Shown here piece by piece: positions 31-18,519 of a stretch of DNA of 30,373 bases (the stretch's first letter is position 1; every line of letters starts with the position of its first letter). The position numbers and the translations under genes are program-made. Below the pieces are notes generated by a model. That model had not been told where the DNA came from and ran no database searches. It saw nothing but the letters and a program-made list of their open reading frames with translations. This DNA is from a virus, in the UHGV virus genome UHGV-0127428; one strand, given 5' to 3'.

Positions 31-49
31 TATATGGGTTATAACAATT

Positions 50-2290: not shown

Positions 2291-2355
2291 TATCGTTTTT
2301 AATTAACTGATTATTTATCTCATCACTGAATATCTTTATATAGTGAGGACTTATT

Positions 2356-3307: not shown

Positions 3308-3844
3308 ATGTCATTTATTAAAACTTTTTCCGGGAAGCATTTTTATTATGACAGGATAAATAAAGACGACATCGATATTAACGATATCGCGGTTTCCCTT
3401 TCAAATATCTGTCGCTTTGCCGGTCATCTTTCGCACTTCTACAGCGTCGCCCAACATGCGGTTCTTTGCAGCCAGCTGGTGCCGCAGGAATTTGCTTTTG
3501 AAGCGTTAATGCATGATGCAACAGAAGCGTATTGCCAGGACATTCCCGCACCACTGAAACGCCTTCTTCCTGACTATAAACAAATGGAAGAAAAAATAGA
3601 CGCCGTAATCCGTGAGAAATACGGGTTACCCCCAGTTATGAGTACGCCCGTGAAATATGCCGATCTCATCATGCTGGCAACCGAACGCCGCGATCTCGGG
3701 CTTGATGATGGCTCTTTCTGGCCTGTACTGGAAGGTATCCCGGCAACAGAGATGTTCAACGTGATTCCACTGGCACCGGGCCATGCCTACGGGATGTTTA
3801 TGGAACGCTTTAACGAGTTATCGGAGTTACGCAAATGCGCATGA
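3308..3844 (+). CDS. yfdR: YfdR-like HD-domain phosphohydrolase (5'-deoxynucleotidase family)
   Basis: Start chosen at the ATG at 3308 (MSFIKTFSGKHFYYD...), giving 178 aa. HD signature present (ALMHDATEAY). Matches the recalled YfdR N-terminus and length. Confidence 0.7.
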   Translation: MSFIKTFSGKHFYYDRINKDDIDINDIAVSLSNICRFAGHLSHFYSVAQHAVLCSQLVPQEFAFEALMHDATEAYCQDIPAPLKRLLPDYKQMEEKIDAVIREKYGLPPVMSTPVKYADLIMLATERRDLGLDDGSFWPVLEGIPATEMFNVIPLAPGHAYGMFMERFNELSELRKCA

Positions 3845-4197
3845 ATATTTTCGAAATGGAAGGGTTTCTTCGTGGGAGATGTGTACCGCGAGATCTGAAA
3901 GTAAATGAAACAGATGCTGAATACCTGGTGCGTAAATTCGATGCGCTTGAAGCTAAATGTGCAGCACAGGAAAACAAAGTAATACCAGTGTCAACTGAAC
4001 TGCCACCAGCAAATGAAAGTGTTTTGTTATTCGATGCTAACGGAGAAGGCTGGCTAATTGGCTGGCGTTCTCTCTGGTACACCTGGGGACAAAAAGAAAC
4101 CGGAGAATGGCAGTGGACATTTCAGGTCGGGGACCTTGAAAACGTCAATATCACTCACTGGGCAGTAATGCCAAAAGCACCGGAGGCTGGAGCATAA
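3835..4197 (+). CDS. yfdS: YfdS-like protein (120 aa)
   Basis: 120-aa ORF overlapping the yfdR stop; position and length match YfdS. A paralogous N-terminal domain recurs at 25288. Confidence 0.5.
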   Translation: MRMNIFEMEGFLRGRCVPRDLKVNETDAEYLVRKFDALEAKCAAQENKVIPVSTELPPANESVLLFDANGEGWLIGWRSLWYTWGQKETGEWQWTFQVGDLENVNITHWAVMPKAPEAGA

Positions 4198-4502
4198 TGA
4201 CCACTTTTACCGACAAAGAACTGATTAAAGAAATTAAAGAGCGTATCAGCAGCCTTGACGTGCGAGACGATATTGAGCGCCGTGCTTATGAAATCGCACT
4301 CCTATCTCTGGAAGTAGAACCAGATGAACGCGAAGCTTATGAATTATTCATGGAAAAGCGTTTCGGTGACTTAGTAGATCGTCGGAGAGCAAAAAACGGC
4401 GATAACGAATACATGGCATGGGATATGACTCTCGGTTGGATCGTCTGGCAGCAACGAGCTGGTATCCATTTTTCAACAATGTCACAGCAAGAGGTGAAAT
4501 AA
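4197..4502 (+). CDS. yfdT: YfdT-like protein (101 aa)
   Basis: 101-aa ORF; ATG overlaps the stop of the previous gene; position and length match YfdT. Confidence 0.5.
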   Translation: MTTFTDKELIKEIKERISSLDVRDDIERRAYEIALLSLEVEPDEREAYELFMEKRFGDLVDRRRAKNGDNEYMAWDMTLGWIVWQQRAGIHFSTMSQQEVK

Positions 4503-4852
4503 TGGAGCCATACAGCCTCACACTCGATGAGGCCTGTCATTTTCTCAAGATATCCAGACCGACTGCCATTAACTGGATACGCACAGGGCGTCTTCAGGCA
4601 ACACGCAAAGATCCCACTAAGAATAAATCTCCTTACCTCACAACACGACAAGCCTGCATTGCGGCTCTTCAGTCTCCGCTGCATACTGTCCAGGTGAGCG
4701 CGGGTGATGGCATAACAGAGGAAAGAAAATGTCACTCTTCCGCAGAGGTGAAATATGGTACGCCAGTTTCACATTGCCGAACGGTAAAAGATTTAAACAG
4801 TCTCTTGGAACAAAGGACAAAAGGCAGGCGACAGAACTCCATGACAAGCTAA
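4502..4852 (+). CDS. xis: P22-type excisionase (Xis)
   Basis: ATG at 4502 overlaps the yfdT stop (taATGg). The 116-aa product ([38 protein letters not shown]...) resembles P22-family Xis and overlaps the int start, as is typical. Confidence 0.7.
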
Positions 4853-5892
4853 AGGCTGAAGCATGGCGGGTCAGCAAACTTGGTGAAATACCTGATATAA
4901 CGTTCGAGGAAGCGTGTGTCAGGTGGCTTGAAGAGAAAGCACATAAAAAATCACTGGACGATGACAAAAGCCGGATCGGATTCTGGCTTCAACATTTCGC
5001 AGGGATGCAACTAAGAGACATCACTGAATCAAAAATTTATTCAGCGATGCAGAAAATGACAAACCGGCGTCATGAGGAAAACTGGAAACTCAGGGCAGAA
5101 GCATGCAGAAAAAAAGGGAAACCTGTTCCAGAATACACGCCAAAACCAGCGTCCGTTGCAACGAAGGCTACGCATCTTTCATTTATAAAGGCCCTGCTAA
5201 GAGCCGCAGAGCGTGAATGGAAAATGCTTGATAAGGCACCAATTATTAAAGTGCCTCAACCGAAGAATAAACGTATCCGCTGGCTGGAGCCTCATGAAGC
5301 ACAAAGGCTGATTGATGAATGTCCGGAGCCATTAAAGTCTGTTGTTGAATTTGCACTGGCAACAGGCTTAAGACGCTCGAACATCATCAACCTTGAATGG
5401 CAACAAATAGACATGCAGCGCCGGGTGGCATGGATAAACCCGGAAGAGAGTAAATCAAACCGCGCAATTGGCGTTGCGCTGAATGATACTGCATGTCGCG
5501 TATTGAAAAAACAAATCGGGAATCATCACCGTTGGGTATTTGTTTACAAGGAAAGCTGTACCAAACCAGACGGAACGAAAGCGCCAACGGTCAGGAAGAT
5601 GCGGTATGACGCAAACACAGCCTGGAAAGCGGCGCTGAGACGAGCAGGTATTGATGATTTCAGATTTCACGACTTGAGACACACCTGGGCAAGTTGGCTG
5701 GTTCAAGCCGGAGTCCCGTTGTCAGTGTTACAGGAAATGGGAGGCTGGGAGTCTATCGAAATGGTTCGTCGATATGCTCACCTCGCACCTAATCACCTTA
5801 CCGAACACGCACGGCAAATAGACTCGATCCTGAACCCATCGGTCCCAAATTTGTCCCAGTCAAAAAATAAGGAAGGTACTAATGATGTGTAA
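4729..5892 (+). CDS. int: P22-type tyrosine integrase
   Basis: 387 aa; the N-terminus [27 protein letters not shown] matches my recollection of P22 Int. Catalytic signature present ([29 protein letters not shown]). Stop lies immediately before an att core copy. Confidence 0.9.
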
Positions 5893-5925
5893 CTTATTGA
5901 TTTAAATGGTGCCGATAATAGGAGT
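5893..5925. repeat. att core copy 1 (short): cttattgattt-aaa-tggtgccgataataggagt
   Basis: Its 19 nt tggtgccgataataggagt equal the reverse complement of the 3' end of tRNA-Thr (ACTCCTATTATCGGCACCA). Similarity to the tRNA stops after ggagt, where element B sequence begins. Same flank motif as copies at 18458 and 30324. Confidence 0.7.
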
Positions 5926-6067
5926 AAAACACTCGATTAATCTCGTGTTAATGCCATCACCTACGACCATTACTAATTGATTGAATCTTATAGAAAAATC
6001 ATCATTTTCTATGCGTCACAATCAATTTTCACATTACAAACGCTCCGACACTTTAGCCGGAGATTTT

Positions 6068-7345
6068 ATGAGATACAAGCCTAACCAATACTTAATCTGT
6101 GATTCTTACGGTAACTACTATTTAAGGATCACGCTGCCTGTGTATATGCAGCCCTTTTTTGAAGGAAAAAGGACGTTTGTCAGAAGTCTACACACAAGTA
6201 ATCTTCGTGTTGCACGTAGAAAGCGTGATCAGATTGCAGATGAATACCATTGCTTACGGGAGAGTGTTGCCCCTGTAAACAGCACAATAGAAAACACGCT
6301 GGAACTGTTACGCAGTAAGGCTAAATACGCCAAAACAGCTACCAGAGTGCAAGATACAGCGTCTTCGTGTCCGTCATTGCTTAAAATTCTTGAAATCTAC
6401 CTGACAATTAACAGCACGAAGAAGAAGCCAGCCACTTTAGCTAAGGCAAGAAAAGCGGTAGAGATGTTTCTCTCCTACCGTAAAAAGCCTGATATTGCAT
6501 TGCAAGATGTAAGCCGCACCACTGTTACAGGCTGGATTGAACACATGCAAAAAACTCTTTCACAACAATCAATTGCAAATTATATCAGTCCAATGGCCCA
6601 GCTATGGGAATTAGCTTCATCACGTTACCACGATGCGCCAGAAAGGGCGCTCTCCCCCTGGCGAGGGCATAGGCTTGATGTGGCACAAAGTAGAGAGAGC
6701 TACGAGGCATTTTCTAACAAAGAGCTATTGCAGGTGTTGCAAGTATTTTCCGGTAATTCAGCAGAAAACAAAGAAATGACGGCTTTGTGTCTTATCGGTT
6801 TATATACAGGTATGCGGATCAATGAGATAGCAAGTCTCACAATAGACGATGTGAAAGAGATCGAAGGTGTGCTGTGTTTTGAAATCACACAGGGAAAAAC
6901 GAAAGCTGCGGCACGTCTTGTGCCTGTGCATAGCCTTATCACTCCATTGGTGTTATCTCTTCGTGAAAAGCCTCACAATGGCTTTTTGTTCTATCACGCC
7001 AGCATTACAGAACGTGCTGACGGTAAACGCTCTACGTGGCATACACAACGATTTACAAGAGCTAAACGAAAGGCTTTAGGGGAAAAGGGAACAGAAAGGA
7101 AAGTGTTTCATTCTCTGAGACACGGAGTAGCACAGCTTCTTGATCGAAATCAAATTCCAGAGGACCGCATAGCTTTAATGTTGGGCCATCAGCGCGGCAA
7201 TACAGAAACATTCCGCACATATAGCAAGAATGCAGCTTCTCCAGTAGAGCTTAAAAAATATATTGAGCTTTTACGCTACCCTGAAATAGAGAAAGGCTTA
7301 TCAATCAATAAAAAATCAAATTTAAGGCGTAAAACAACGCTATAG
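6068..7345 (+). CDS. tyrosine recombinase/integrase of element B, distinct from the P22-type integrases
   Basis: Catalytic signature present: GMRINEIASL (Arg), HSLRHGVAQL (HxxR), GHQRGNTETFRTYSK (Tyr). Start chosen at the ATG at 6068 with ggag 6 nt upstream; the tool's TTG start at 5981 is less likely. Lies immediately inside the left boundary of element B. Confidence 0.75.
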   Translation: MRYKPNQYLICDSYGNYYLRITLPVYMQPFFEGKRTFVRSLHTSNLRVARRKRDQIADEYHCLRESVAPVNSTIENTLELLRSKAKYAKTATRVQDTASSCPSLLKILEIYLTINSTKKKPATLAKARKAVEMFLSYRKKPDIALQDVSRTTVTGWIEHMQKTLSQQSIANYISPMAQLWELASSRYHDAPERALSPWRGHRLDVAQSRESYEAFSNKELLQVLQVFSGNSAENKEMTALCLIGLYTGMRINEIASLTIDDVKEIEGVLCFEITQGKTKAAARLVPVHSLITPLVLSLREKPHNGFLFYHASITERADGKRSTWHTQRFTRAKRKALGEKGTERKVFHSLRHGVAQLLDRNQIPEDRIALMLGHQRGNTETFRTYSKNAASPVELKKYIELLRYPEIEKGLSINKKSNLRRKTTL

Positions 7346-7352
7346 ACGTAAT

Positions 7353-7386
7353 AAAGAGGCTTCAATATAGACTGATGCCTCTTTTA
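7353..7386. terminator. bidirectional terminator hairpin between convergent genes
   Basis: Stem agaggc / gcctct (7355-7360 and 7377-7382) with a T-run after it; lies between the end of the integrase (+) and the end of the 219-aa gene (-). Confidence 0.45.
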
Positions 7387-7425
7387 TGATTATCTCGTTA
7401 CAGAGCGTTTCATAGGCGTTTAAGG

Positions 7426-8085
7426 CTATTGTTTAAATACTGGCGTTACAACGTCTTGCCCTGGGCTTTTTGTATTTACCTGCATTTTAATCTGTCCCCC
7501 TACAGATTTATTTGGTGCTGTTTTTACCGCAATTGCGCTTGTAGTTGCTTTAGAGACAAGACGGATTTGCTCAAAATCAAGAGTAAACAATAGGCTTTCG
7601 CTTGCTTCTTCTTCATAAGACATGCCAACTAACACAACGTTGTCATAATTTTTTAACTCAGTGACAAGTAGGAAAGGTTGGCGACTGTCCATCAACTGAT
7701 TTAGGTATTCAAGCATAAGCATACGTCGATTGCCGTTAATTCCCGCATTCTTAATCATATCGGGATTGAGCTTCAATACGGTTTCAGAGATACGCCCCTG
7801 TAATGTGAACTTGTTATTCCGTATTTGAACATGATCACTAACTTCTGATCCTGATTCGACGGCATAGCTTGTAACGTCTGCATTTCGGCTAACTTTCGTC
7901 GATTCCACGCTATCAAATGATAATGCCTGGTAGTCATTGTAAGCAGCATTTGCACCACTGCCGAGGTTAGAGGTAATGATCGCAAAGCCGTTACCCCCTT
8001 TAGTTGTTCTACCGTTGCTATCGTTGCTTGTGCTGTTGATTTTCGCCTCAGTCGGGCGACCAATGGTTAACGGACCCATTGCCAT
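7426..8085 (-). CDS. hypothetical protein (219 aa), last gene of the capsid-like operon
   Basis: Good RBS (aagga) upstream of the ATG at 8085; Gly/Asn/Ser-rich N-terminus; no recognisable motif. Confidence 0.5.
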   Translation of the reverse strand: MAMGPLTIGRPTEAKINSTSNDSNGRTTKGGNGFAIITSNLGSGANAAYNDYQALSFDSVESTKVSRNADVTSYAVESGSEVSDHVQIRNNKFTLQGRISETVLKLNPDMIKNAGINGNRRMLMLEYLNQLMDSRQPFLLVTELKNYDNVVLVGMSYEEEASESLLFTLDFEQIRLVSKATTSAIAVKTAPNKSVGGQIKMQVNTKSPGQDVVTPVFKQ

Positions 8086-8132
8086 AATTTGTAATCCTTA
8101 TTTAAGGGGGCTAAACTGCCCCACAGTGATGA

Positions 8133-9974
8133 TTAATAGGTTGACCCGCCTGACATAACACCCAGCGTTAATAGCTTGCTAAACTCAGCGGAGGATGCCT
8201 TTGATTTGAAGTCGATAAATTCGCTCAATCGTCCGGTGTCTGATTCGATAGTTAGCGGCACTTCTGCATTTACTTGTAATTCTGGATTGAAGTTAATAAC
8301 AGGTGCAAAGGTGTAAGAAGGAGCCTTGAAAGCTTGTTGTGCTGCACTCTGTTTCAGATTTGCAATGTTTTGTCCTTCGAGACTGTATTGATTTACAGCC
8401 TGCGCCCCACCTACCGTTTCTTCTGGCATAAACCAGCTTTTAATAGTGTTAACCAGGGAATTGCTGTTATCTGGCTTAGTTGTTCCGGTGCCAGCGCCTT
8501 TATATTGATCAGGAGTGAGATTAGAAAGATTCTGCTTCATTCCTTCGTTAGATAGTGGCGGTGCATCCCCTAAATTCTTTTGAATAGCTGCCGTCTTCTC
8601 GTCGTTTTTCATCAGCCAGTTGATTGCTTTCATTACAGCGTTAACCAATCCGCCGATAGCCTCGCCTAATTTGGTAAACATTGGCAGCATTGCAACCATG
8701 CTCTTTTTAAACTCTTCAATCACTTTCGGATCAAGAGATTTCATAAAGCCATCAACAAAGGCGATCCCTTGTGAGTCAGAAAGCCCACTAAGTGCATTAT
8801 TCAGTTCACGGAATTTAATAACGCTTTCCTGTTGTGCCTGCGTTACCCAGCGCCCTGATTCTCGTTGTTCTCGTGCTGATTGTTCCACTTCTTTAGCGGA
8901 GCGTGTCCAGTATTTAGAGGTGAGCATCAAATCATCAGCCAGATCTTCCAGACGACTACCGATTTGTGCATCTGAATAGCCTTTAGCTACCATTCCCTGA
9001 ACTGCTTTACTAACCAGACCAGCCGGATTATCAGCAAAGTCTTTTAGATCCTTTTTAGTTAAGAATCCTTCATTCATTAAAGTATTGATGCCGCTATCGC
9101 CGCCCTTCCATTCTCCTTTACCTGTTTTTTTATCGACTACATATTCAGCCTCATCATAGCTTTTGGTTGCACGCTCACGCACATCTTTCATCTGATCGAG
9201 ATACTTACGTTTACCTTGATCCCCCATCATTGAATCAACGCCGTTTTTGTAGGCCCATTGCTCAATATTGTTCATCTGGTTAACGTCTACACCGCCCAGC
9301 TTCGCACGGCTATACAATTCTCCCAGCGTTTCAGCACTGGCAAAGCTGTTAGTAACAAATTCAGAGGCTTTGCTCATAGCCATATATGCAGCGCCAGCGC
9401 CTAAGCCACCCAGCATAACAGCCGCAGCACCGCCGCCAATACTCCCGCTACCCTTAACAGGTGCATAGGCTTTAGCGTGAGCGTTACGATTGCCATTAAT
9501 CTTACGTTGTTGCTGTTGTAGGCGTTTCATTTGGCTATTCATACGTGCCAGACTAATAGCGCCTCTTTCATATTGGAGGGCAATTTCTCTAGCCTGTGCA
9601 ATAGCTTTATATTGTTCCGCTACAGAAAGACGGTGCATTGCACTAATGCTTGATCCAACGTCTAAAAGCTTTAATTCTGCCTTCTCTTTGCGTGCTGCCA
9701 GGGCTTTTTGTTCTCTTGCAACTACACGTTGAGCGGCTAATTGTGCTTTAGCATTAGCTTTATCAGCCTGTGCTTGCTTTTTAGCAATATCGTCTACGTC
9801 TTTTTTTGCTTTAGCGGTTGATTGTTTATGTGTCTTAACACGCAATTCTATATCTTTCACAGCCGCCATTTGTTTACGAAGTTTTTCTACTTCTGCTTTT
9901 GCTTTCTCTAATGATGGTCGGTTAACTTCGAAGGTGACAACGTTCGAGAGGCGTGCCACGTTTAGCTCTAACAT
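8133..9974 (-). CDS. tape-measure-like protein (613 aa; coiled-coil N-terminus plus Gly-rich hydrophobic segment)
   Basis: N-terminal Lys/Ala/Gln/Glu-rich predicted coiled coil (KLRKQMAAVKDIELRVK...AKAQLAAQRVVAREQ) followed by GSGSIGGGAAAVMLGGLGAGAAYMA. This architecture is typical of phage tape-measure or internal virion proteins; assignment is by composition only. Confidence 0.4.
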   Translation of the reverse strand: MLELNVARLSNVVTFEVNRPSLEKAKAEVEKLRKQMAAVKDIELRVKTHKQSTAKAKKDVDDIAKKQAQADKANAKAQLAAQRVVAREQKALAARKEKAELKLLDVGSSISAMHRLSVAEQYKAIAQAREIALQYERGAISLARMNSQMKRLQQQQRKINGNRNAHAKAYAPVKGSGSIGGGAAAVMLGGLGAGAAYMAMSKASEFVTNSFASAETLGELYSRAKLGGVDVNQMNNIEQWAYKNGVDSMMGDQGKRKYLDQMKDVRERATKSYDEAEYVVDKKTGKGEWKGGDSGINTLMNEGFLTKKDLKDFADNPAGLVSKAVQGMVAKGYSDAQIGSRLEDLADDLMLTSKYWTRSAKEVEQSAREQRESGRWVTQAQQESVIKFRELNNALSGLSDSQGIAFVDGFMKSLDPKVIEEFKKSMVAMLPMFTKLGEAIGGLVNAVMKAINWLMKNDEKTAAIQKNLGDAPPLSNEGMKQNLSNLTPDQYKGAGTGTTKPDNSNSLVNTIKSWFMPEETVGGAQAVNQYSLEGQNIANLKQSAAQQAFKAPSYTFAPVINFNPELQVNAEVPLTIESDTGRLSEFIDFKSKASSAEFSKLLTLGVMSGGSTY

Positions 9975-10008
9975 GTTAATTGTTTCCCTGTATTATGATT
10001 GTTGTTTG

Positions 10009-10206
10009 TTATTGTTTTTTAGAACAATAATATTGGATTGCTTCGAAAGTGCTGCACCCAGTCTGAAAGACACGCTGGCGCACATTATTTGCATCAATTT
10101 CTAAAAGGCGGCAAAGCGCCGATGTGTTTATAACTGATTCCTCGCTAATAGCTGCCAGTTCTTTTACAGATTTAAGAATTAATGCCTGTGAATTTTCTGT
10201 ATTCAT
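10009..10206 (-). CDS. small hypothetical protein (65 aa from the ATG at 10206)
   Basis: Internal ATG with gagag RBS; the longer 91-aa frame starts in a hydrophobic, unlikely leader. Confidence 0.3.
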   Translation of the reverse strand: MNTENSQALILKSVKELAAISEESVINTSALCRLLEIDANNVRQRVFQTGCSTFEAIQYYCSKKQ

Positions 10207-10360
10207 TGGTTTTCTCTCACATATATATATTTTTATTTGGGTTTGTAGACAGTAGAAAAACAAAAAGGGCAAGAGACAGCGCATATTTTGCTTATATGAT
10301 TATCCCTTACCCTTATTGCCCCGATTATTTCCAGACGTAGGGGAACGTCTTTAACACTTT

Positions 10361-11389
10361 TTACGCTACTGTGATCTGCACAGAGAAGCCAACACCGTGG
10401 TTAACCACAAGCGAGCTATTCTCGGTCACTACGTGCACTGCGTCGCCGCGATTCGATTCGAAAGCATAGCTGTAATACTCTTTAGCGCCTTGAGACAGCA
10501 GATCGAAGGAACTGGAAGGCGCGCCATAGATAGCTTGGTAAACACCTCCACCCTTAGCGAATTTAGGCACGGCTACAGCGTCAGCGGTCATATGTGCCAG
10601 CAGCAGCGGATCAGTCACTTTGATCAGATCAATGTTAGTTCCTGGAATGGTGAAAGTAGTTACGCCAGGCAGCAGAGAACGCACATTAAACACCACGTTT
10701 GCATCGTCTACAGGGCTTGCATATTGGAACGCATTGACCATGCCAACGCTGTAACGAATAGCGTTGAATGCCGCAGGTTTACAGAACACAACAACACGCT
10801 CAATGGTTGCAGCCTGGCTTTGTGCCTTAGCAATCATATCCGTATGCATCTGATCAAATTGCTTGAATACGGTCATTGTGTTGGTGCTGGATGCGTCAAC
10901 GGTTGCAGTCATTGGAGACACACCGAACAGAGTGCTGTAATCGATCAGAACATCGTCAGTTTTCGGGGTATGTGTCTTGCCAGAGAACAGAGAAGCCGCG
11001 AGGATGCTTTCTTTAGTGCGCTGGAATGCAACATTGTGTTTAGCGATATATTCCGCATACAGATCCGGCAGTGTTTCTTCAATAGAGCTTCCGGCTTTGC
11101 GTTTGCCTTGCACGTCCTGCGGTTTGATCAGGTCTTCACGCAGGAAGTAAGGGATTTCAATCAGCCATTCTTCCCCGTTCTCACGCTTAGTAACGTTATG
11201 CTCAGAGCTAAAACGGCTTGTAGGATGGTTGAACAGAGATTCATTGCTCTCGATAAGCTGGGAAACAGCCACTTTGTGACTTTCTACAGGCACAGGATCA
11301 GTAAAATCCAGAGTAGACAGTAGGTAATTGCGTGAGTCGTTTAATTCGAACAGTGGAGCAAGATCAACCACTTCATTTCCGATAATCAT
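10361..11389 (-). CDS. candidate major capsid protein (lambda gpE-like family)
   Basis: 342 aa, similar in size to lambda E (about 341 aa). The C-terminal ...GFSVQITVA resembles the recalled lambda E C-terminus ...FVSVQLA. It is directly preceded by a small decoration-sized gene, as D precedes E in lambda. Strong RBS. Family assignment is tentative. Confidence 0.45.
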   Translation of the reverse strand: MIIGNEVVDLAPLFELNDSRNYLLSTLDFTDPVPVESHKVAVSQLIESNESLFNHPTSRFSSEHNVTKRENGEEWLIEIPYFLREDLIKPQDVQGKRKAGSSIEETLPDLYAEYIAKHNVAFQRTKESILAASLFSGKTHTPKTDDVLIDYSTLFGVSPMTATVDASSTNTMTVFKQFDQMHTDMIAKAQSQAATIERVVVFCKPAAFNAIRYSVGMVNAFQYASPVDDANVVFNVRSLLPGVTTFTIPGTNIDLIKVTDPLLLAHMTADAVAVPKFAKGGGVYQAIYGAPSSSFDLLSQGAKEYYSYAFESNRGDAVHVVTENSSLVVNHGVGFSVQITVA

Positions 11390-11405
11390 TATTATTTATT
11401 CCTTC

Positions 11406-11780
11406 TTAAGATGTGAAAACAGAGTGGAAGCCTTCAAGCTGGAAGCCTTTAGCAGCGAGAGCTGCAATAGCAGCTTCTTTTACAGCGCCTTCGGCATTCA
11501 GGGCATCAGCTTTGATGCAAACGAGTCCGGCATTAGCACGAAGCACGTTAACTGTTTTATTTGAATCAGCAGTTACGAAGTCAGACACAACGACAAGAAC
11601 ATCAGCGCCGCTAACATATTTAGCGCCGGATGAATCAATGAGGTCGCCGCACGTTACATCTTGTGCAAGTGCTGCAAATTTTTTGCTTTCTACAGCCGCG
11701 TAAGGGTCGGTTGCATAGCTCACTACGTCAGTGATGCTTTTACGATGTGGGAAAACATCGCTTAATTTTAAAATAGCCAT
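11406..11780 (-). CDS. candidate head decoration-like protein (124 aa)
   Basis: Size and position immediately upstream of the capsid-like gene; Ala/Val/Gly-rich beta-type composition; aagga RBS. No direct motif evidence. Confidence 0.35.
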   Translation of the reverse strand: MAILKLSDVFPHRKSITDVVSYATDPYAAVESKKFAALAQDVTCGDLIDSSGAKYVSGADVLVVVSDFVTADSNKTVNVLRANAGLVCIKADALNAEGAVKEAAIAALAAKGFQLEGFHSVFTS

Positions 11781-11989
11781 TATTTTTCCTTAGATTGTTT
11801 GATTTGTTGAGCTTTAGCATTAATCAAATCTTGGTGAGATGGTTTATTGCTTTCAGCCTTATAAAGACGTTCACACTGTTTCTTTAATTCTGTGGGAGTG
11901 ATGCCAAGCGCGTAGGCTGTAGCATTCAACACATCTTCAGTTAGTGTTAACTTTTCATTGCCATATTTCAGGATAATTTCTTGTTTCAT
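11780..11989 (-). CDS. small hypothetical protein (69 aa), first gene of the capsid-like operon
   Basis: ORF whose stop overlaps the start of the next gene; lysine-rich and helical in composition. Confidence 0.35.
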   Translation of the reverse strand: MKQEIILKYGNEKLTLTEDVLNATAYALGITPTELKKQCERLYKAESNKPSHQDLINAKAQQIKQSKEK

Positions 11990-12983
11990 TTATATAACGA
12001 TTCCATTATGTTGGAATTTAATAAATCCCCCAGGCTATAAGAGGTTCAATCTGACAATAGCGAGGGGGATTTATTAACGTGTCGGGCAATACACAGCGAT
12101 AAGTAAAACCTTGAGGAGGTTTTAAACGTATCTCTAAGAATGCTTATTAAACATGCTTAAAGATAGGTTTAAAGGGTGAACAGATATTCCTGAAAACATG
12201 CTCTTAGGAAAACATGCGGAATCAATCAGGAATATCTATTCGGGGCGCGGTGGCTAACCGCTATCTTTCATGGTGTGGATGCACCAGTCAGATTTTAAGG
12301 AATCACTATTCCAATCTACTCACAGATTAAATTTTTAATAATGATTAACTACACCAACAGTAATCTACCGTTTCAGAAAATCGTTTTTACAACCAAAGCT
12401 TATAGATCCGCATTCTATAAAACCCGTTTTGCTATCAATATTTCCAAAGTTTATTGCACCATTCTTAGCTAAACTCTCTCTACTTGCGGCTAACGCTATG
12501 CAGATGATAGTTTTTTGACAACAACTTAATAGATTATTCTGTTACTAACTTCTGTCATTAAATAAGAGTTTAATGATGTTAGTAAATAGTTATAAAATAT
12601 AACTATCAGTGTAAGGCTCTTTAATGTTTTCGGACAAAATAAGGAGCTTTAGGATAAGCATAGATGAAAAATAAGAGCGGGAAGGGCAAGGAGATAACAC
12701 CTACCCGCTTTTATCAAAAATTAAGCACAATGCCTAACAACATTTATCAACACAACGTAGAAACAATCAACAATCAAAGAGGGAGTTATGATTATTCTAA
12801 AACTTCTTGAGGGGATGGAAGGTAATATTTGTTAGAGGTTAATGCCATTCAACCTTTGAGGCTATCACCTTCCATATGCAGGGATTTATGACAGGAAAAG
12901 GATTAACACCAGTCAAAACCTTTTTATCTACCCCTAATATTATTATATAATGAAATCGTTATAAATGCAAATGATTTTTATTA

Positions 12984-13292
12984 TCATTTAGAGAAAATAG
13001 CACTTTTTGCTAAATCATCTACTAATTGCTGAATCTCTTCACTTGCAGCCTTTAACGTGCTGGCGGTGTCTGTGATGGTTTGAGTGCACATCTTGGCATT
13101 GTCCTCAATTAGCTCTAAATCTCTCACCAGAGAGATAAAATCGTCAAGGCTTACATTCACCTTCATTAAGCTAATAACGCATTGAGAGAGCGTGTAATCG
13201 CATAAATCTGAATAGGCTTGATTTATTCTTGTTTGTAGTGAGATAGTCAGATCTAAAAGTTGTTCCATTGCATTGCTAATATCTTCTTCCAT
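12984..13292 (-). CDS. hypothetical acidic protein (102 aa)
   Basis: aaggag RBS; start overlaps the stop of the upstream gene (taATG); no recognisable family. Confidence 0.45.
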   Translation of the reverse strand: MEEDISNAMEQLLDLTISLQTRINQAYSDLCDYTLSQCVISLMKVNVSLDDFISLVRDLELIEDNAKMCTQTITDTASTLKAASEEIQQLVDDLAKSAIFSK

Positions 13293-13495
13293 TATGCGGC
13301 TTCTCCTTGTAATGCATCATTAATCATATTCAATACGATGTTAAAAGGTGTCTTGAGCGTCAGCACTTCATCACGGTAACGCTCTAATGCTTCGTAGTCT
13401 TCTGTTTCTTTTGCCAGTCGGATTAACTCAGCATAGTTTTTTGCATCAGACAGGATCATCTGAAATAATTGTGTTTCTTGAATATAGCCAATCAT
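13292..13495 (-). CDS. hypothetical protein (67 aa from the internal ATG)
   Basis: The internal start MIGYIQETQ... has a strong aaagga RBS; the longer 81-aa frame begins in the intergenic region. Confidence 0.4.
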   Translation of the reverse strand: MIGYIQETQLFQMILSDAKNYAELIRLAKETEDYEALERYRDEVLTLKTPFNIVLNMINDALQGEAA

Positions 13496-13552
13496 TATTT
13501 TTCCTTTTTTGAATATTTTCATTGGGCGCTTATACATACGCCCATCATTTTA

Positions 13553-13933
13553 TTAGTTAGAACGTTTGTTAGAAGCTAATGTATCTTCTAAATGAGCCAT
13601 CAGATCGACTTCCGATGCACCACCTACACAATTATTGAAAGCGTTAAATCCCAAAAAATGATGATAGGAGCTAAACCCTAAAAGCTGCCAACGTTTCAGA
13701 GTGCCATCAGAAATGATAGTTTGTTTTCTTGTTCTTGGGCGAAAGTAAACGCCTGGCATTGACTGGATTATTTCTAATTCTTCATCGCTTAATTCAGGGG
13801 ATTCTGTTTCAAGAATAAAGATTATCTCTTCCCCTGGATCGTTATTGGTGTGTGTCGGTGGACGTTGTCTTTTTGAATTGAAATTACTGTTTTTTTCAAT
13901 ACGTTTTAAGTTATTACGTTTCTTTTTTCCCAT
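13553..13933 (-). CDS. hypothetical protein (126 aa) with a basic N-terminus
   Basis: Strong RBS (aagaggga); N-terminal MGKKKRNNLKRIEK...; no recognisable family. Confidence 0.45.
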   Translation of the reverse strand: MGKKKRNNLKRIEKNSNFNSKRQRPPTHTNNDPGEEIIFILETESPELSDEELEIIQSMPGVYFRPRTRKQTIISDGTLKRWQLLGFSSYHHFLGFNAFNNCVGGASEVDLMAHLEDTLASNKRSN

Positions 13934-14116
13934 TTTCCCTCTTTTTATGTGGATTATAAAAACTTAATGTCATTGTTACGATGAATATCGCCATAAATGC
14001 ATTTGCCATATGTATTGCCCGATCTGTTGTTATTGATTGTTTGTGATAAACAATTCAAAATCTTTGTTTAATTTCAAAAGACGAAATGTAGTGCTGTTAT
14101 AAGCCATTTATTCTCC

Positions 14117-14686
14117 TTAGAATGGTATTGAATCGTATATTTCACTTTTTTCTCTTAGAGATATTATCAGATCGTGAAAAGCCTGTTTCTCAAGATAGAT
14201 ATTCTTTGAATCTAATGCTCGTTTTACAAAATCTTCTGTTTCTTCGTGCGGTGGTTTCTTCTTATCAAGGGAAAGAAGCCAAGTAAAAATTTCGGGCCGC
14301 TCAGGGAACTCTGATTCCTGTATTTCTTCTTCAACGATGATTTCGGAAACATTCAATATTCCATTAGATTCGTCTTCTTTCTCAGAAGGATCAGGTAGTG
14401 ATGATTCTCCTTTTGGAATATCAAGCACTCGATAAAGGTTAGAGCTTCCTGGTCGTGCATCTTTTATAATTAATCCCATTTCGAGCAATTTCTTAACCCT
14501 TTCTTCTGCTGCTCTTGGTGTTATGCCAAAAACATCGCCTATCTTAGCGTAAGAGGGAAATGCACGATCAAACCCTCTCAAATAGCAGTAAAGGTTTTTA
14601 GCACTATCTGTAAATTTATGCCCGTTTACTTGGCTTATTTTTAGAATCCACATAGGAACTTTTACAAATTGTTCTTCATTAATCAT
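14117..14686 (-). CDS. replication initiator-like protein (winged-HTH Rep family)
   Basis: Start set at the ATG at 14686 with aaggag 8 nt upstream. N-terminal region (LYCYLRGF...AFPSYAKIGDVFGITPRAAEERVKKLLEMGLI) is typical of plasmid/phage wHTH replication initiators; acidic C-terminus. An iteron array lies 1.3 kb upstream. Confidence 0.5.
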   Translation of the reverse strand: MINEEQFVKVPMWILKISQVNGHKFTDSAKNLYCYLRGFDRAFPSYAKIGDVFGITPRAAEERVKKLLEMGLIIKDARPGSSNLYRVLDIPKGESSLPDPSEKEDESNGILNVSEIIVEEEIQESEFPERPEIFTWLLSLDKKKPPHEETEDFVKRALDSKNIYLEKQAFHDLIISLREKSEIYDSIPF

Positions 14687-14739
14687 TAAAAATCTCCTTG
14701 ATGTAATCACGCTCTACGGCGCTACTATGGTGATAAAAA

Positions 14740-14910
14740 TCACTTGCTTTTGTTTGAGAGTGTTTCAGCCTCTCTTTTCAACATATCAAGAATGTAATCT
14801 GTAACAGTGATACGTTTACTTCTGGCTTCTTTAAACAACACCTGAAATACTTCATCAGGAATATGAAAGCAAGTGCGTGGTTGTCTTTTCTTTTCTGTAG
14901 TTTCGCTCAT
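14740..14910 (-). CDS. small ribbon-helix-helix (CopG/Arc-like) regulator candidate (56 aa)
   Basis: MSETTEKKRQPRTCFHIPDEVFQVLFKEARSKRITVTDYILDMLKREAE fits an RHH pattern (beta strand then two helices); strong RBS; immediately upstream of rep. Confidence 0.4.
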   Translation of the reverse strand: MSETTEKKRQPRTCFHIPDEVFQVLFKEARSKRITVTDYILDMLKREAETLSNKSK

Positions 14911-14931
14911 AGTTTTCTCCTTCTCCTGTTA

Positions 14932-15108
14932 TTATTCTTTCTCTGCCTTACGCAGTTCATCAATAATTTTTAGTGCATCGTCAAAGCATTTTTCACGCTC
15001 TGGATAACCACAGCGTCGCGCTGTGTTCCTGTTCATCCTTACTTTAAAACGATTAATCTCACCACGTTTCCAGGCTTCAACTACATCCTGTGGAGTAAAA
15101 TATTTCAT
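14932..15108 (-). CDS. small hypothetical protein (58 aa)
   Basis: ATG with a perfect aggagg SD; first gene of the rep operon. Confidence 0.35.
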   Translation of the reverse strand: MKYFTPQDVVEAWKRGEINRFKVRMNRNTARRCGYPEREKCFDDALKIIDELRKAEKE

Positions 15109-15960
15109 TAATTAGCCTCCTTATTCTATTTGGTTAAAAGAAAAAACACCTTGCAAGCCTTGTTGGGCTTCAAAGTGCGGTGCATTGGTTTAATTACTTA
15201 GAGGATAAGAATGTTTTCTGTCCCTAATATTACTTTACCACGACTAAAAGCTTTTGTCAACCCCTAGCCATAAAAATATTGATCATTTTCAGTGTGTTAT
15301 AATTTTTCTTAGCAATTCGTGCTCTTACGAGTGCTCCTATTCTTCCTTATTCTCTAAAACGCTCTAAAACGCCCTCTGACGAGGTTTTGATAAATACAAT
15401 ACATTCCCTTATGTAGAGGCTGTTTAGCTCGCCTACGGCTTGATTTAAGCGGTAGAATCTTATTTAACCTTCAACTACTAAAACCATTCTTTCTTTTTTG
15501 TTTGTTGTTGGTTGTTGTCTGTGTCTATGTGCTAACATCGCTAACGCGTAGCACACAAGGTTATTGCACTCGTCAGAGTATTGCACAATAGATTTTCTCT
15601 TAAATAGATTGATGATCGTTAGATGGTAGTTAGTTAATTATCGTTATGCGCACAGCGCAAGACTATTTAGCCTTACGCAAGCCGTAGGCTATTTGCACAT
15701 AGTAGATTACATATTCGTTGTGAGCGGCATTAGCGAACATAGATCTACTAACTAACATCAACAAACAAAAACTATGTGTTATGACAAGCAGTCTAACGAT
15801 TAACACTCTAACTTGTGCAAGGTTCTGGCGAATGCCAATAGATTAAGGGATAGTCAAGGACTCCCCTAACGGGTATCTCTATAATTATTCTTTAAAGATA
15901 AAAGAATTTATAAAAGATAATTTAATTGTAGTTTGATAGTTGATCTAATAGGTAACAAAA

Positions 15961-16096
15961 TTCTGTAGGGGTGGCTAACAGTTTTCTGTGGGGGTGTATA
16001 ACATAATTCTGTTAGGGTTGGGGTAACAGTTTTCTGTTAGGGTGCATATTTCTTTAAAAGTTAAGGATAACAGAATTCTGTGGGGGTAGTTCACAG
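15961..16096. repeat. iteron-like direct repeats (five copies of TTCTGTnGGGG...), candidate replication origin
   Basis: Copies start at 15961, 15984, 16007, 16032 and 16076, mostly 23-25 bp apart, consensus ttctgt(a/g/t)ggg(g/t)t; set in AT-rich noncoding DNA upstream of the rep operon. Confidence 0.6.
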
Positions 16097-16480
16097 TGAC
16101 CTACCGTTACATCCATTTATCACATAACATCTGTGCAATGATCTTCTAAAAGTGTTTCTTGCTACCAAAATTAAACATCTAAAACAGGCTTAAATTCAAT
16201 GTAATTGATGATTAATCCCTGTGTAATTCCTACGTAAAAATCCAATGAAAAGTAGCTTAAAAAGTGCAATGTTAGCTTTCTTCACTTTTACATCACTTTC
16301 GCAAAGCCGCATTACACACGGCTTACAGAGCACTATCAGAAATTGTTGATTAAAAATCAATCTATTATTTGTCGAACAAGTTTCCTTTAATGCAACAAAA
16401 AATTATTTTTTCAAAATAAACACACTATTTAATAGCTTGCTAATTTTACCAAAATGTAACTACATGATTCTCATGCAAGA

Positions 16481-16586: not shown

Positions 16587-16612
16587 CAAATCAACACAGA
16601 AGGAAAATGAAA

Positions 16613-17164
16613 ATGGCTAATATTGGATACATTAGGGTATCGACTGTCCAACAAAACACAGACCGTCAATTAGCTGGAGTAACTCTTGATAAAGTCTTTG
16701 AAGATAAAGCGTCAGGCAAGAATACCCAGCGCCCACAGTTTGAGGCAATGATGAACTATGTGCGTGAAGGTGATGTTTTGCATGTTCACAGCATTGATCG
16801 ACTTTGCCGTAATACAGCCGACCTACTGGCAACGGTTGAGCAATTAACAGAGCGCGGCGTGTCTGTGCATTTCCATAAAGAAGACTTTAAGACAGGGAAG
16901 AACTCTCCCGCAGGGAATATGATGCTCACAGTGCTTGCAGCAGTGGCACAAATGGAACGTGAAATGATGCTTGAGCGGCAACGTGAGGGGATCGCCGCAG
17001 CTAAGGCCGCTGGACGTATAGCAAAACGTGGTAATGGAAAAGCAATTGATCGAGCGGGAATTGTTGCCGCTCTCGCGAATGGTGGATCAATTCGGAGCGT
17101 AGCAAAAGATTTCAGTGTCAGCACACAGACGGTGCAACGTATCAAGAAAGAGCAGGAAGCGTAA
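16613..17164 (+). CDS. serine recombinase (resolvase/invertase family)
   Basis: N-terminal MANIGYIRVSTVQQ with the catalytic Ser, plus a C-terminal HTH-like tail (SIRSVAKDFSVSTQTVQRI). The start could instead be the ATG at 16607. Confidence 0.8.
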   Translation: MANIGYIRVSTVQQNTDRQLAGVTLDKVFEDKASGKNTQRPQFEAMMNYVREGDVLHVHSIDRLCRNTADLLATVEQLTERGVSVHFHKEDFKTGKNSPAGNMMLTVLAAVAQMEREMMLERQREGIAAAKAAGRIAKRGNGKAIDRAGIVAALANGGSIRSVAKDFSVSTQTVQRIKKEQEA

Positions 17165-17489
17165 TGCCTCCTGATATTTGAGAATTGTCGCTGCGTGGAC
17201 CTGACGCCGCTGATCTTCGCGTTAAACATTGATCACGTTTGCGCCGATTTCAGATAAAAAGGCAGCTATTAAGCAATACGTAACTTTTACAATTAGTGAA
17301 ATTATCTAAAACACAAGTTATATAGATGAGAAAATGAAATATTATCTTGAACAAATCAAACAAAACAACACATCATCTTGTTGACACCATGCAACGTGAA
17401 TAGTAAGCTATTATATGTGAAAATTTGCACATTGCATGCAATAAAAAATAAATGATACCTTATTGTTGTTAAATCAATAGGGGGTATCT

Positions 17490-18457: not shown

Positions 18458-18519
18458 TTATTGATTTTCTTAATGGTGCCGATAATAGGAGTCGAACCTA
18501 CGACCTTCGCATTACGAAT
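18458..18519 (-). repeat. att core copy 2 carrying a 46-nt 3' fragment of tRNA-Thr (18474-18519)
   Basis: The reverse complement of 18474-18519 equals the tRNA-Thr(CGU) sequence from the anticodon loop to the CCA end (ATTCGTAATGCGAAGGTCGTAGGTTCGACTCCTATTATCGGCACCA). Similarity to the tRNA stops at 18520, so this is a displaced partial copy, not a gene. Flank ttattgatttt matches the other two copies. Confidence 0.8.

What the first reader, a model, noticed from the sequence alone, without database searches (positions are those of the whole stretch)
7426..11989. Capsid-like module without packaging machinery
A six-gene minus-strand operon encodes a 342-aa protein with a lambda-E-like C-terminus, preceded by a decoration-sized protein and followed by a 613-aa coiled-coil/Gly-rich protein and a 219-aa protein. 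No gene here is large enough or carries a Walker A motif for a terminase, and no portal-sized ORF exists. If these are real virion proteins, the element must borrow portal, terminase and tail from a helper, which would be a distinctive parasitic strategy. The alternative is that this is a non-viral compartment or something else built on a capsid-like fold.
Basis: inference. Interest (0 to 1): 0.7.

Follow-up and report, generated by a model that had tools for sequence, protein, structure and literature searches.

The report
Satellite of virulent coliphages, own capsid
The six genes belong to a 12.5-kb integrated E. coli element that makes its own capsid shell, capsid cement and two tail-core proteins, has no portal, terminase or other tail genes, and most likely parasitizes large virulent phAPEC8-like phages, a combination not described before.

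Summary
Window 7426-11989 (minus strand) holds six tightly spaced genes:
- a 69-aa protein;
- a 124-aa protein predicted to have a lambda-gpD-like decoration fold;
- a 342-aa HK97-fold major capsid protein (MCP) of the lambda-E family;
- a 65-aa protein;
- a 613-aa tape measure protein (TMP);
- a 219-aa tail-tube initiator.

No portal, protease, terminase, sheath or tube gene is present.

The operon lies in a 12.55-kb island (about 5926-18473). The island is bounded by copies of the thrW tRNA 3' end and carries its own integrase, a Rep-like protein and an iteron array.

Three lines tie it to virulent 150-kb Phapecoctavirus myoviruses:
- The best phage homologues of the MCP, TMP and tube initiator are all in that group, in the same gene order.
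- An 83-bp island segment matches the phages' right terminal-repeat boundary, where three phage records end.
- Phage Mt1B1_P17 carries a nuclease-domain protein whose first 105 residues are 99% identical to the island's Rep.

Related islands occur in about 12% of complete E. coli genomes and in other Enterobacterales. Their structural genes are under purifying selection.

Best reading: a new phage-satellite family that combines self-made capsids with PLE-like chimeric tails. All evidence is computational; mobilization is untested.

The parts
5907..5925 (.). Left island boundary: 19-bp copy of the thrW (tRNA-Thr) 3' end, TGGTGCCGATAATAGGAGT
   Evidence: Three exact copies lie in the window, at 5907, 18474 and 30338; 0.01 are expected by chance. 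The sequence is identical to the tRNA-Thr 3' end in L001.
6068..7345 (+). Tyrosine integrase (425 aa; the mechanical ORF starts at TTG 5981)
   Evidence: Pfam Phage_integrase, SAM-like and DUF6538 domains; phrog_1; RefSeq annotation in L001.
7426..8085 (-). Tail-tube initiator (Dit-like baseplate protein), 219 aa
   Evidence: Pfam Dit_like, E 1e-27. 51% identical to Mt1B1_P17 gp134, E 2e-72. Matches PDB Phi92_gp135 (E 5e-54) and the phiTE 'tube initiator'. Absent from the Klebsiella and Serratia relatives.
8133..9974 (-). Tape measure protein, 613 aa
   Evidence: phrog_16051, E 9e-32. Aligns with the phage TMP gp135 at both conserved termini, 24% identity. Matches PDB Phi92_gp134, E 1e-20. It is 49 aa shorter than the phage TMP.
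10009..10206 (-). Conserved small ORF (65 aa) between the MCP and TMP genes; function unknown
   Evidence: A 62-67-aa gene sits at this position in the E. coli, Klebsiella and Serratia islands. No detectable similarity to phage gp136.
10361..11389 (-). Major capsid protein, HK97 fold, lambda-E family, 342 aa
   Evidence: PF03864, E 3e-18. Profile hits solved capsids including Phi92_gp124, E 7.6e-18. 25% identical over full length to Mt1B1_P17 gp145. AF2 model pLDDT 74; top Foldseek hits are phage MCPs, E 3e-17, TM 0.65.
11406..11780 (-). gpD-like capsid decoration (cement) protein, 124 aa
11780..11989 (-). First gene of the operon, 69 aa; function unknown (possibly a small scaffold or a regulator)
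   Evidence: A gene of this size is conserved at this position in all relatives, but the sequence is poorly conserved. No family hit.
12018..12077 (.). 21-bp inverted repeat just upstream of the structural operon; candidate operator or terminator
   Evidence: 90% complementary arms separated by 18 nt. No function tested.
13553..13933 (-). Conserved core gene of unknown function, 126 aa
   Evidence: Aligns with homologues in the O26 E. coli and Klebsiella islands. No Pfam, PHROG or PADLOC hit.
14117..14686 (-). Rep-like winged-helix protein (HTH_36, replication initiator O-like), 189 aa from the ATG
   Evidence: phrog_270 and other replication-initiator families; Pfam HTH_36, below its cut-off. 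The first 105 residues are 99% identical to phage Mt1B1_P17 gp053.
15950..16092 (.). Iteron array: five copies of a 20-23-bp unit, TAACAnnnTTCTGTnGGGGT; candidate replication origin
   Evidence: the repeat finder families D1 and D2, and TRF score 132. Conserved in related islands.
16607..17164 (+). Serine recombinase / DNA invertase, 185 aa; accessory
   Evidence: Pfam Resolvase, E 1e-38; phrog_125. Missing from the O26 island. No hix/gix-like site was found.
17168..17250 (+). Mimic of the Phapecoctavirus right terminal-repeat boundary; candidate packaging or cleavage signal. The phage end aligns to 17223/17224, within TTCGCGTTA|A.
   Evidence: About 81% identical to a non-coding sequence in 62 Phapecoctavirus records. 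It straddles the end of the 328/329-bp terminal repeat in WPEC4, Schickermooser and Mt1B1_P17. Invariant blocks are shared between divergent islands and phages.
18474..18519 (.). Right island boundary: 46-bp partial thrW copy, shared with the neighbouring P22-like prophage remnant
   Evidence: In strains without that prophage the island abuts the intact tRNA-Thr.

Best explanation
Window 7426-11989 is the virion-protein operon of a 12.55-kb integrative phage satellite (about 5926-18473) sitting at thrW.

Proposed cycle:
1. The island stays integrated through its tyrosine integrase.
2. When a virulent phAPEC8-like myovirus (Phapecoctavirus, about 150 kb) infects the cell, the island excises.
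3. It replicates from its iteron origin using its own Rep-like initiator.
4. It expresses the six-gene operon.
5. Its own MCP and gpD-like cement protein build capsids, presumably small ones sized for 12.5 kb, on the helper's portal, protease/scaffold and terminase.
6. Its own tape measure and tube initiator replace the helper's in otherwise helper-made contractile tails. This would be a chimeric tail about 7 nm shorter, because the TMP is 49 aa shorter.
7. The helper's terminase recognizes or cuts the island at an 83-bp copy of the phage's terminal-repeat boundary.

Shown by computation: gene identities, island boundaries, the family's spread and purifying selection, and the sequence ties to Phapecoctavirus.

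Inferred: induction, small capsid size, chimeric particles, packaging at the 83-bp site, and transfer.
For: Gene identities:
- MCP.
- Decoration fold.
- TMP.
- Tube initiator.

Helper link:
- The best phage homologues of all three larger virion proteins are in Phapecoctavirus and its close relatives. The order Dec-MCP ... small ORF-TMP-tube initiator matches Mt1B1_P17 gp146-gp145 ... gp136-gp135-gp134, with the neck, sheath, tube and chaperone genes missing.
- Window 17168-17250 is about 81% identical to a non-coding sequence in 62 Phapecoctavirus records. Schickermooser has a reported 328-bp terminal repeat (PMC6563267). The island segment straddles the right end of that repeat in three independent records. 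The boxes TGATATTTG.G, TTCGCGTTAA.CA and ACGT.TGCGCC are invariant across divergent islands and phages.
- Mt1B1_P17 gp053 carries 104 of 105 identical residues of the island's Rep N-terminus (355 bp at 99% DNA identity). These are fused to a second HTH and a C-terminal endonuclease domain (phrog_681, E 2e-18; MUG113/T5orf172). Only 6 phage records hold at least 80% of this protein. This shows recent DNA exchange in a shared cell. It also parallels ICP1's anti-satellite nuclease Odn (PMC8263062).

Satellite hallmarks:
- att copies, an integrase, a Rep-like protein plus iterons, and no portal or terminase.
- The same compact layout is found in Klebsiella and Serratia islands. MCP homologues occur in seven genera. 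631 of 5426 complete E. coli genomes match the TMP-MCP region.
- dN/dS is 0.10-0.17.

Precedent: PLEs of Vibrio cholerae encode their own TMP and baseplate hub and make chimeric, shorter tails (PMC12987554).
Against: - There is no experimental or sequence evidence of excision, packaging or transfer. The predicted attP junction is absent from the viral and metagenome collections. All metagenome contigs inspected that carry the island's 83-bp site are chromosomal.
- The IMG/VR hits are mostly prophage predictions from isolate genomes (IDs of two are metagenome-derived), on 19-76 kb contigs rather than ~12.5-kb free elements.
- Only one terminal-repeat boundary is mimicked; no convincing copy of the left boundary exists.
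- The 83-bp site is missing from many family members, including the O26, Klebsiella and Serratia islands. It therefore cannot be the family's universal packaging signal.
- The MCP is only 25% identical to the helper's. Co-assembly with the helper portal and scaffold is therefore assumed, not shown.
- The nuclease assignment of gp053's C-terminal domain is below Pfam's cut-offs and rests mainly on a PHROG family.
Confidence: 0.68

Rival explanations
1. The island is a defence element. Its divergent capsid, tape measure and tube-initiator proteins act as dominant-negative decoys that poison assembly of infecting phAPEC8-like phages. This protects the population without the island itself being packaged.
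For: - Satellites and islands commonly interfere with helper assembly; examples are the Tai systems (PMC11364771) and PLE Rta.
- The proteins are homologous enough to the phage's to co-assemble, at 24-51% identity.
- There is no evidence of free or packaged island DNA.
- The phage-encoded chimeric nuclease fits any harmful island.
Against: - A pure decoy does not need a full-length capsid protein plus a matching cement protein under strong purifying selection across genera.
- It also would not need a copy of the phage's genome-end sequence.
- No known defence family was detected.
- Interference and transfer are not mutually exclusive.
Confidence: 0.14
2. The element is a real satellite, but its natural helper is a different phage, possibly an unsequenced temperate one. 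The Phapecoctavirus similarities would then reflect only common ancestry and occasional recombination.
For: - MCP and TMP identity to Phapecoctavirus is low, at 24-31%.
- The Klebsiella island shares no DNA with any phage record.
- The O104:H4 variant carries an alternative MCP (20% identity) with no phage match at all.
- The tube-initiator gene is accessory.
Against: - For this E. coli allele, three independent links point to the same genus: best protein homologues with synteny, the terminal-repeat boundary mimic found in 62 records, and 99%-identical DNA shared with Mt1B1_P17.
- No other phage group in the 50,697-record collection gives closer hits.
Confidence: 0.1
3. The operon is a decaying remnant of a prophage related to phAPEC8-like phages. 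It has no current function and was left behind by deletions.
For: - The window is a tandem array of prophage remnants at thrW.
- K-12's CP4-6 cryptic prophage occupies this same site (established knowledge).
Against: - The same compact 11-12.5-kb gene set recurs in E. coli, Klebsiella and Serratia with intact ORFs and its own integrase and att sites.
- dN/dS is 0.10-0.17.
- About 12% of complete E. coli genomes carry it, some in up to 3 copies.
- phAPEC8-like phages are virulent and no temperate relative is known.
- Random decay would not remove portal, terminase, sheath and tube in every lineage while keeping the same five or six genes.
Confidence: 0.05
4. The MCP-like protein forms a non-viral compartment (encapsulin-like) unrelated to phage particles.
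For: HK97-fold proteins also build encapsulins, and encapsulins do appear far down the Foldseek list (ranks 34, 44 and 50; TM about 0.42).
Against: - The nearest sequences and structures are phage capsid proteins of the phi92, phiTE and Sf14 lineage.
- The adjacent genes are a decoration protein, a tape measure and a tube initiator.
- There is no cargo enzyme.
- The operon sits in an integrative island with phage-derived cis sequence.
Confidence: 0.02

Closest known systems
[quoted passage not shown]
   Same: - Both are integrated islands of about 12-18 kb that exploit a virulent myovirus of more than 100 kb.
- Both encode their own tape measure protein and a baseplate-core protein at 19-51% identity to the helper's. 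In PLE this yields chimeric, shorter tails (PMC12987554).
- Both have their own replication initiator with an iteron-type origin.
- In both systems the helper phage carries a chimeric nuclease that has captured the satellite initiator's DNA-binding domain. In ICP1 this is Odn, with a T5orf172 domain (PMC8263062). Here it is Mt1B1_P17 gp053.
   Different: - There is no sequence relationship.
- This island uses a tyrosine integrase at a tRNA gene.
- It encodes its own capsid protein and decoration protein, rather than an external scaffold (TcaP) that reshapes the helper's coat protein.
- No tail assembly chaperone was recognized.
- All functional claims here are untested.
Capsid-forming PICIs (cf-PICIs) of Enterobacterales and other bacteria
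   Same: - Both are integrative satellites that encode their own HK97-fold capsid protein instead of remodelling the helper's.
[quoted passage not shown]
   Different: - cf-PICIs are described as carrying a complete head and packaging module and taking only tails from temperate helpers (established knowledge, Alqurainy et al. 2023; not re-read here).
- This island has none of portal, protease, connectors or terminase.
- Its links are to virulent phages.
P4-like satellites of P2-type phages
   Same: Both are E. coli integrative satellites of about 11.6-12.5 kb at a tRNA gene. Each has its own replication functions and carries a copy of the helper's packaging site.
   Different: - P4 has no capsid or tail gene. 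It resizes the P2 capsid with Sid/Psu and uses a primase-helicase.
- None of these were detected here.
Phapecoctavirus (phAPEC8-like) structural module, e.g. Mt1B1_P17 gp134-gp146 and phi92 gp124/gp134/gp135
   Same: The island's capsid protein, tape measure and tube initiator are homologues of these phage proteins, and its decoration-fold gene occupies the position of the phage's head decoration gene gp146. All four are in the same order.
   Different: - The island keeps only these four plus two small genes.
- It lacks about 8 kb of neck, sheath, tube and chaperone genes that lie between them in the phage, and all packaging genes.
- Identities are 24-51%.

Membership tests
Lambda-E / HK97-fold major capsid proteins (Pfam PF03864) | Full-length match above the family's curated score | tested here: met
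   66.2 bits against a cut-off of 22.9; residues 19-341 against profile positions 14-329. All 50 listed homologues except two truncated partial sequences carry PF03864.
Lambda-E / HK97-fold major capsid proteins (Pfam PF03864) | HK97 fold | tested here: met
   AF2 model pLDDT 74. Top Foldseek PDB hits are the MCPs of phiTE, Bas63, ICP1, Sf14 and lambda (E down to 3e-17, TM 0.55-0.67). The sequence profile hits solved capsids at E 7e-18.
Lambda-E / HK97-fold major capsid proteins (Pfam PF03864) | Assembles into an icosahedral shell | not testable with these tools
   Needs expression and electron microscopy.
gpD-like trimeric capsid decoration/cement proteins | gpD-like fold | tested here: met
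gpD-like trimeric capsid decoration/cement proteins | Sequence membership in a curated decoration family | tested here: not met
   No Pfam or PHROG hit. There is no BLAST similarity to phage gp146; only the C-terminal '..AAL...VFTS' tail aligns.
Tail tape measure proteins | Homology to a tape measure protein seen in a solved tail or baseplate | tested here: met
   phrog_16051, E 9e-32. Phi92_gp134, E 1e-20. Aligns to Mt1B1_P17 gp135 at both conserved termini.
Tail-tube initiator / Dit-like proteins (PF21821) | Match above the curated score and homology to solved tube initiators | tested here: met
   97 bits against a cut-off of 24.2. Phi92_gp135, E 5e-54; phiTE tube initiator, E 5e-10.
Phage satellites (general) | Integrative element with its own recombinase and att repeats | tested here: met
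Phage satellites (general) | Own replication module | tested here: inconclusive
   A Rep-like HTH_36 protein matches replication-initiator PHROGs, and there are five iterons. Origin activity was not tested.
Phage satellites (general) | Incomplete virion and packaging gene set | tested here: met
   No portal, protease, terminase, sheath or tube genes.
Phage satellites (general) | Cis-acting packaging signal shared with the helper | tested here: inconclusive
   An 83-bp match straddles the phage's right terminal-repeat end. The left end is not mimicked. The site is absent from some relatives.
Phage satellites (general) | Helper-dependent induction, packaging and transfer | not testable with these tools
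   No free or circular form was found in public assemblies.
cf-PICI | Own portal, prohead protease, head-tail connectors and terminase subunit(s) alongside the MCP | tested here: not met
   Only the MCP and a decoration protein are present. Pfam and PHROG scans of all island ORFs find none of the others.
PLE | Sequence relationship to PLE genes (serine integrase, RepA_N initiator, TcaP and others) | tested here: not met
   The integrase is a tyrosine recombinase and the initiator is of HTH_36 type. No direct comparison with PLE proteins was run.
PLE | Satellite-encoded TMP and baseplate-core protein (a functional trait) | tested here: met
   compared with PMC12987554.
P4-like satellites / classical Gram-negative PICIs | Sid/Psu/Delta and alpha primase (P4); AlpA, Pri-Rep and packaging-redirection genes (PICI) | tested here: not met
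   No such Pfam or PHROG hits in any island ORF.
Encapsulins | Closest structural and sequence relatives are encapsulin shells, with an adjacent cargo enzyme | tested here: not met
   Encapsulins rank 34th or lower, with TM about 0.42. The neighbouring genes are tail genes.

The most novel reading that the evidence does not exclude
This is an E. coli counterpart of the Vibrio PLE-ICP1 system, but with a new assembly strategy. An abundant satellite family of Enterobacterales parasitizes virulent phAPEC8-like myoviruses, which are widely isolated and studied as candidates for phage therapy. It builds small capsids from its own capsid and cement proteins on the helper's portal, fits helper tails with its own tape measure and tube initiator, and is packaged through a mimic of the phage's terminal-repeat end. 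Some helper phages fight back with an Odn-like nuclease that has captured the satellite Rep's DNA-binding domain.
Probability: 0.45. Interest if true: 0.88.

Novelty: new variant of a known kind. Interest (0 to 1): 0.78.

Why it matters
All well-studied E. coli satellites (P4, PICIs, cf-PICIs) exploit temperate phages. A satellite of virulent 150-kb myoviruses, present in about one in eight complete E. coli genomes (including O104:H4, O26:H11, ST131 and APEC strains), would matter in three ways.

- It would be an unrecognized factor in phage host range and in the outcome of phage therapy.
- It would show a new intermediate strategy between stealing the whole capsid and making the whole capsid: own shell and cement, borrowed portal and motor.
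- It would extend chimeric tail building beyond Vibrio.

The phage-borne chimeric nuclease would be a second, independent case of a phage arming itself with a satellite's own DNA-binding domain. That would make the arms race testable in a genetically tractable host.

Tried and rejected
- Predicted attP junction: an exact-pattern scan of viral contigs and metagenome contigs found nothing.
- Metagenome contigs with the island's 83-bp site: of the 12 hits, four were compared with the window and show integrated, chromosomal context; the other eight lie on 18-159 kb contigs.
- IMG/VR loci with the MCP: mostly prophage calls from isolate genomes (two have metagenome-derived IDs), all on 19-76 kb contigs, so they do not show encapsidation.
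- A mimic of the phage's left terminal-repeat boundary: none found. The only weak candidate, 16368-16392, has 8 of 25 mismatches.
- Rfam scan of the island at E <= 1: no RNA family.
- PADLOC: no defence family.
- hix/gix-like invertase sites: none.
- Promoter and terminator scans: no more sites than in shuffled sequence.
- DNA of the Klebsiella island against phages: no match.
- The alternative MCP of the O104:H4 variant against phages: no match.
- Pairwise tests that found nothing: 124-aa protein against phage gp146, 65-aa protein against gp136, and 69-aa protein against the probable scaffold gp147.
- Whether E. coli Mt1B1, the host of phage Mt1B1_P17, carries the island: could not be determined from the listed hits.
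- Ten literature searches found no description of this element.
- The 308-aa plus-strand ORF at 10397-11323 is antisense to the MCP gene and was treated as a mechanical artefact.

Full report
**1. The observation**

- 219 aa at 7426-8085
- 613 aa at 8133-9974
- 91 aa at 10009-10284 by the longest start (RefSeq and the homologues support 10009-10206, 65 aa)
- 342 aa at 10361-11389
- 124 aa at 11406-11780
- 69 aa at 11780-11989

The spacing is that of one operon. The 342-aa protein matches Pfam Phage_cap_E over its whole length (E 3.4e-18). Across the surrounding island no ORF matches a portal, protease, terminase, sheath or tube family. The only Walker-A-like string is a chance match inside the capsid protein.

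**2. What the six genes are**

*Capsid protein (342 aa).*
- A profile of the protein and 25 homologues hits solved capsid proteins, including Phi92_gp124 (E 7.6e-18).
- Its AlphaFold model (pLDDT 74) has phage HK97-fold capsid proteins as top Foldseek matches: phiTE, Bas63, ICP1, Sf14 and lambda gpE (E down to 3e-17, TM about 0.65).

*Decoration protein (124 aa).*
- It has no sequence family.
- BFVD agrees weakly.

*Tape measure protein (613 aa).*
- It matches phrog_16051 (E 9e-32) and Phi92_gp134 (E 1e-20).
- It aligns with the phage protein at both conserved termini.

*Tail-tube initiator (219 aa).*
- It matches Pfam Dit_like (E 1e-27), Phi92_gp135 (E 5e-54) and the phiTE 'tube initiator'.

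*The two small proteins (69 and 65 aa).* Both are conserved in position across all relatives but have no assignable function.

The operon is therefore a head-shell pair plus a tail-core pair, not a capsid module alone.

**3. The unit is a 12.55-kb island**

- Exact copies of the thrW 3' end lie at 5907-5925, at 18474-18519, and at 30338 where the real tRNA begins.
- In strains without the neighbouring P22-like remnant, the same island directly abuts tRNA-Thr.
- Between the repeats lie, in order:
  - a tyrosine integrase (6068-7345);
  - the structural operon;
  - about 1 kb of non-coding DNA containing a 21-bp inverted repeat;
  - small conserved genes of unknown function;
  - a Rep-like winged-helix protein (14117-14686) that matches replication-initiator PHROGs;
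  - five iterons at 15950-16092;
  - an accessory DNA invertase (16607-17164).
- No known defence system or RNA family was detected.

**4. A conserved, selected family**

- MCP homologues at 38-99% identity are chromosomal in E. coli, Cronobacter, Klebsiella, Citrobacter, Enterobacter, Dryocola and Serratia.
- Klebsiella and Serratia islands of about 11-12 kb keep the order small gene, about 120 aa, MCP, about 63 aa, TMP, integrase. They lack the tube-initiator gene.
- 631 of 5426 complete E. coli genomes match the TMP-MCP region and 679 match the replication module, with up to three copies per genome.
- Between the window and the O26:H11 allele, dN/dS is 0.12 (MCP), 0.17 (Dec), 0.16 (TMP) and 0.10 (tube initiator). 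The integrases of these two alleles are 98% identical, so modules are exchanged.
- The O104:H4 island has the same TMP (98% amino-acid identity; ~97% at the DNA level) but a 20%-identical alternative MCP.

**5. Links to one phage group**

*(a) Protein homology and gene order.* The best phage homologues of the MCP (25%), TMP (24-31%) and tube initiator (51%) are all in Phapecoctavirus and its close relatives. These are virulent myoviruses of about 150 kb. The island's gene order matches Mt1B1_P17 gp146 (decoration), gp145 (MCP), then gp136, gp135 (TMP) and gp134. The neck, sheath, tube and chaperone genes between them are missing.

*(b) A copy of the phage genome end.*
- Window 17168-17250 is about 81% identical to a non-coding sequence in 62 Phapecoctavirus records.
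- Schickermooser has a reported 328-bp terminal repeat (PMC6563267).
- The WPEC4 and Schickermooser records start and end with the same 328/329 bp. The Mt1B1_P17 record begins exactly at the aligned position.
- The island segment straddles the right end of that repeat (...TTCGCGTTA|A).
- Three sequence boxes are invariant between phages and even a divergent island allele.
- I read this as a mimic of the terminase recognition or cutting site. That reading is inference.

*(c) A shared Rep domain.*
- 355 bp of the island's Rep gene are 99% identical to the start of Mt1B1_P17 gp053.
- gp053 has 104 of 105 residues of the Rep N-terminal domain, a second HTH_36 domain, and a C-terminal endonuclease domain. 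The endonuclease call rests on phrog_681 (E 2e-18), with Pfam MUG113/T5orf172 below cut-off.
- Only six phage records hold most of this protein.
- This shows recent DNA exchange between island and phage. It has the architecture of ICP1's Odn, an origin-directed anti-satellite nuclease (PMC8263062).

**6. Mechanism proposed**

The island is a satellite. On infection by a phAPEC8-like phage it would:
1. excise;
2. replicate from the iterons;
3. express the operon;
4. build capsids from its own MCP and cement protein on the helper's portal (gp149), protease (gp148) and probable scaffold (gp147);
5. supply its own tape measure and tube initiator to helper tails;
6. be packaged by the helper terminase through the 83-bp site.

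The TMP is 49 aa shorter than the phage's, which predicts a tail about 7 nm shorter. The closest precedent is PLE. PLE's own TMP and baseplate hub are incorporated into chimeric tails about 10 nm shorter, and its TMP is needed for efficient transfer (PMC12987554). Every step from induction onward is inference.

**7. What weighs against it**

- No excised, circular or particle-derived form was found in public assemblies.
- Only one terminal-repeat boundary is mimicked.
- The 83-bp site is absent from many relatives.
- The Klebsiella island shares no DNA with known phages.
- MCP identity to the helper is low.

Rivals, with my confidence in each:
- assembly-poisoning defence island, 0.14;
- satellite of another helper, 0.10;
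- prophage remnant, 0.05;
- non-viral compartment, 0.02.

**8. Comparison and novelty**

The island works like a PLE (virulent myovirus helper, own TMP, phage counter-nuclease) and like a cf-PICI (own capsid protein). It fails the membership tests of both, and those of P4 and classical PICIs:
- It has no portal, protease, connector or terminase genes.
- It has no PLE-type genes.
- It has no Sid, Psu or primase.

Ten literature searches found no description of it. I classify it as a new variant of a known kind: a new satellite family with a new division of labour between satellite and helper.

Noticed in passing
L003 3723-4709 (phage Mt1B1_P17 gp053, NC_052662.1 20722-21708); window 14373-14727: A virulent phage encodes a chimeric protein. 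Its N-terminal 105 aa are 99% identical to the island's Rep-like DNA-binding domain. These are followed by a second HTH_36 domain and a GIY-YIG-type (MUG113/T5orf172, phrog_681) endonuclease domain. The layout is the same as ICP1's anti-satellite nuclease Odn. Only 6 of 50,697 phage records hold most of it.
   Followed up: partly
window 1-5906, 5907-18519 and 18520-30373: Three elements sit in tandem at thrW, separated by copies of the tRNA 3' end. On the left is a prophage remnant with lambda-like tail genes K and L (GC 56%), early genes and an integrase (4729-5892). In the middle is the island. On the right is a P22-like remnant with a GT2 glycosyltransferase, a tailspike carrying a truncated head-binding domain (20984-23377), RecT, gp157, an excisionase and an integrase (29163-30323).
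   Followed up: partly
L012 11226-12257 (E. coli O104:H4 FDAARGOS_349): A sister island has a 98% identical (amino-acid) tape measure protein. Its capsid-gene slot, however, holds a 343-aa protein only 20% identical to this MCP, with no match in any phage record. This suggests cassette exchange of the head module.
   Followed up: partly
window 6068-7345 compared with 7426-11989, against L011: The integrase is 98% identical between two island alleles whose structural proteins are only 61-72% identical. This indicates modular recombination, or faster evolution of the virion genes.
   Followed up: partly
window 12018-12077: A 21-bp inverted repeat (90% complementary, 18-nt spacer) lies 30-90 bp upstream of the first gene of the structural operon, within a 1-kb AT-rich non-coding stretch. 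It is a possible operator or terminator controlling helper-dependent expression.
   Followed up: no
window 16607-17164 and 17168-17250: A serine DNA invertase gene ends 4 bp before the terminal-repeat mimic. Two divergent invertase alleles both keep the mimic next to them. No hix/gix-like site or obvious invertible segment was found.
   Followed up: partly
window 13553-13933; L011 13131-13541; L007 7872-8282: A 126-136-aa protein with a conserved C-terminal motif (GVYF.PR.RK...LGF..Y) is a core gene of the island family in E. coli and Klebsiella. It has no hit in any library searched.
   Followed up: no
window 11406-11780 C-terminus; L002 14856-15254: The island's decoration protein and the phage's head decoration protein gp146 share no detectable similarity except their last about 25 residues. 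Both contain 'AA.AAL' and end in 'VFTS'.
   Followed up: no
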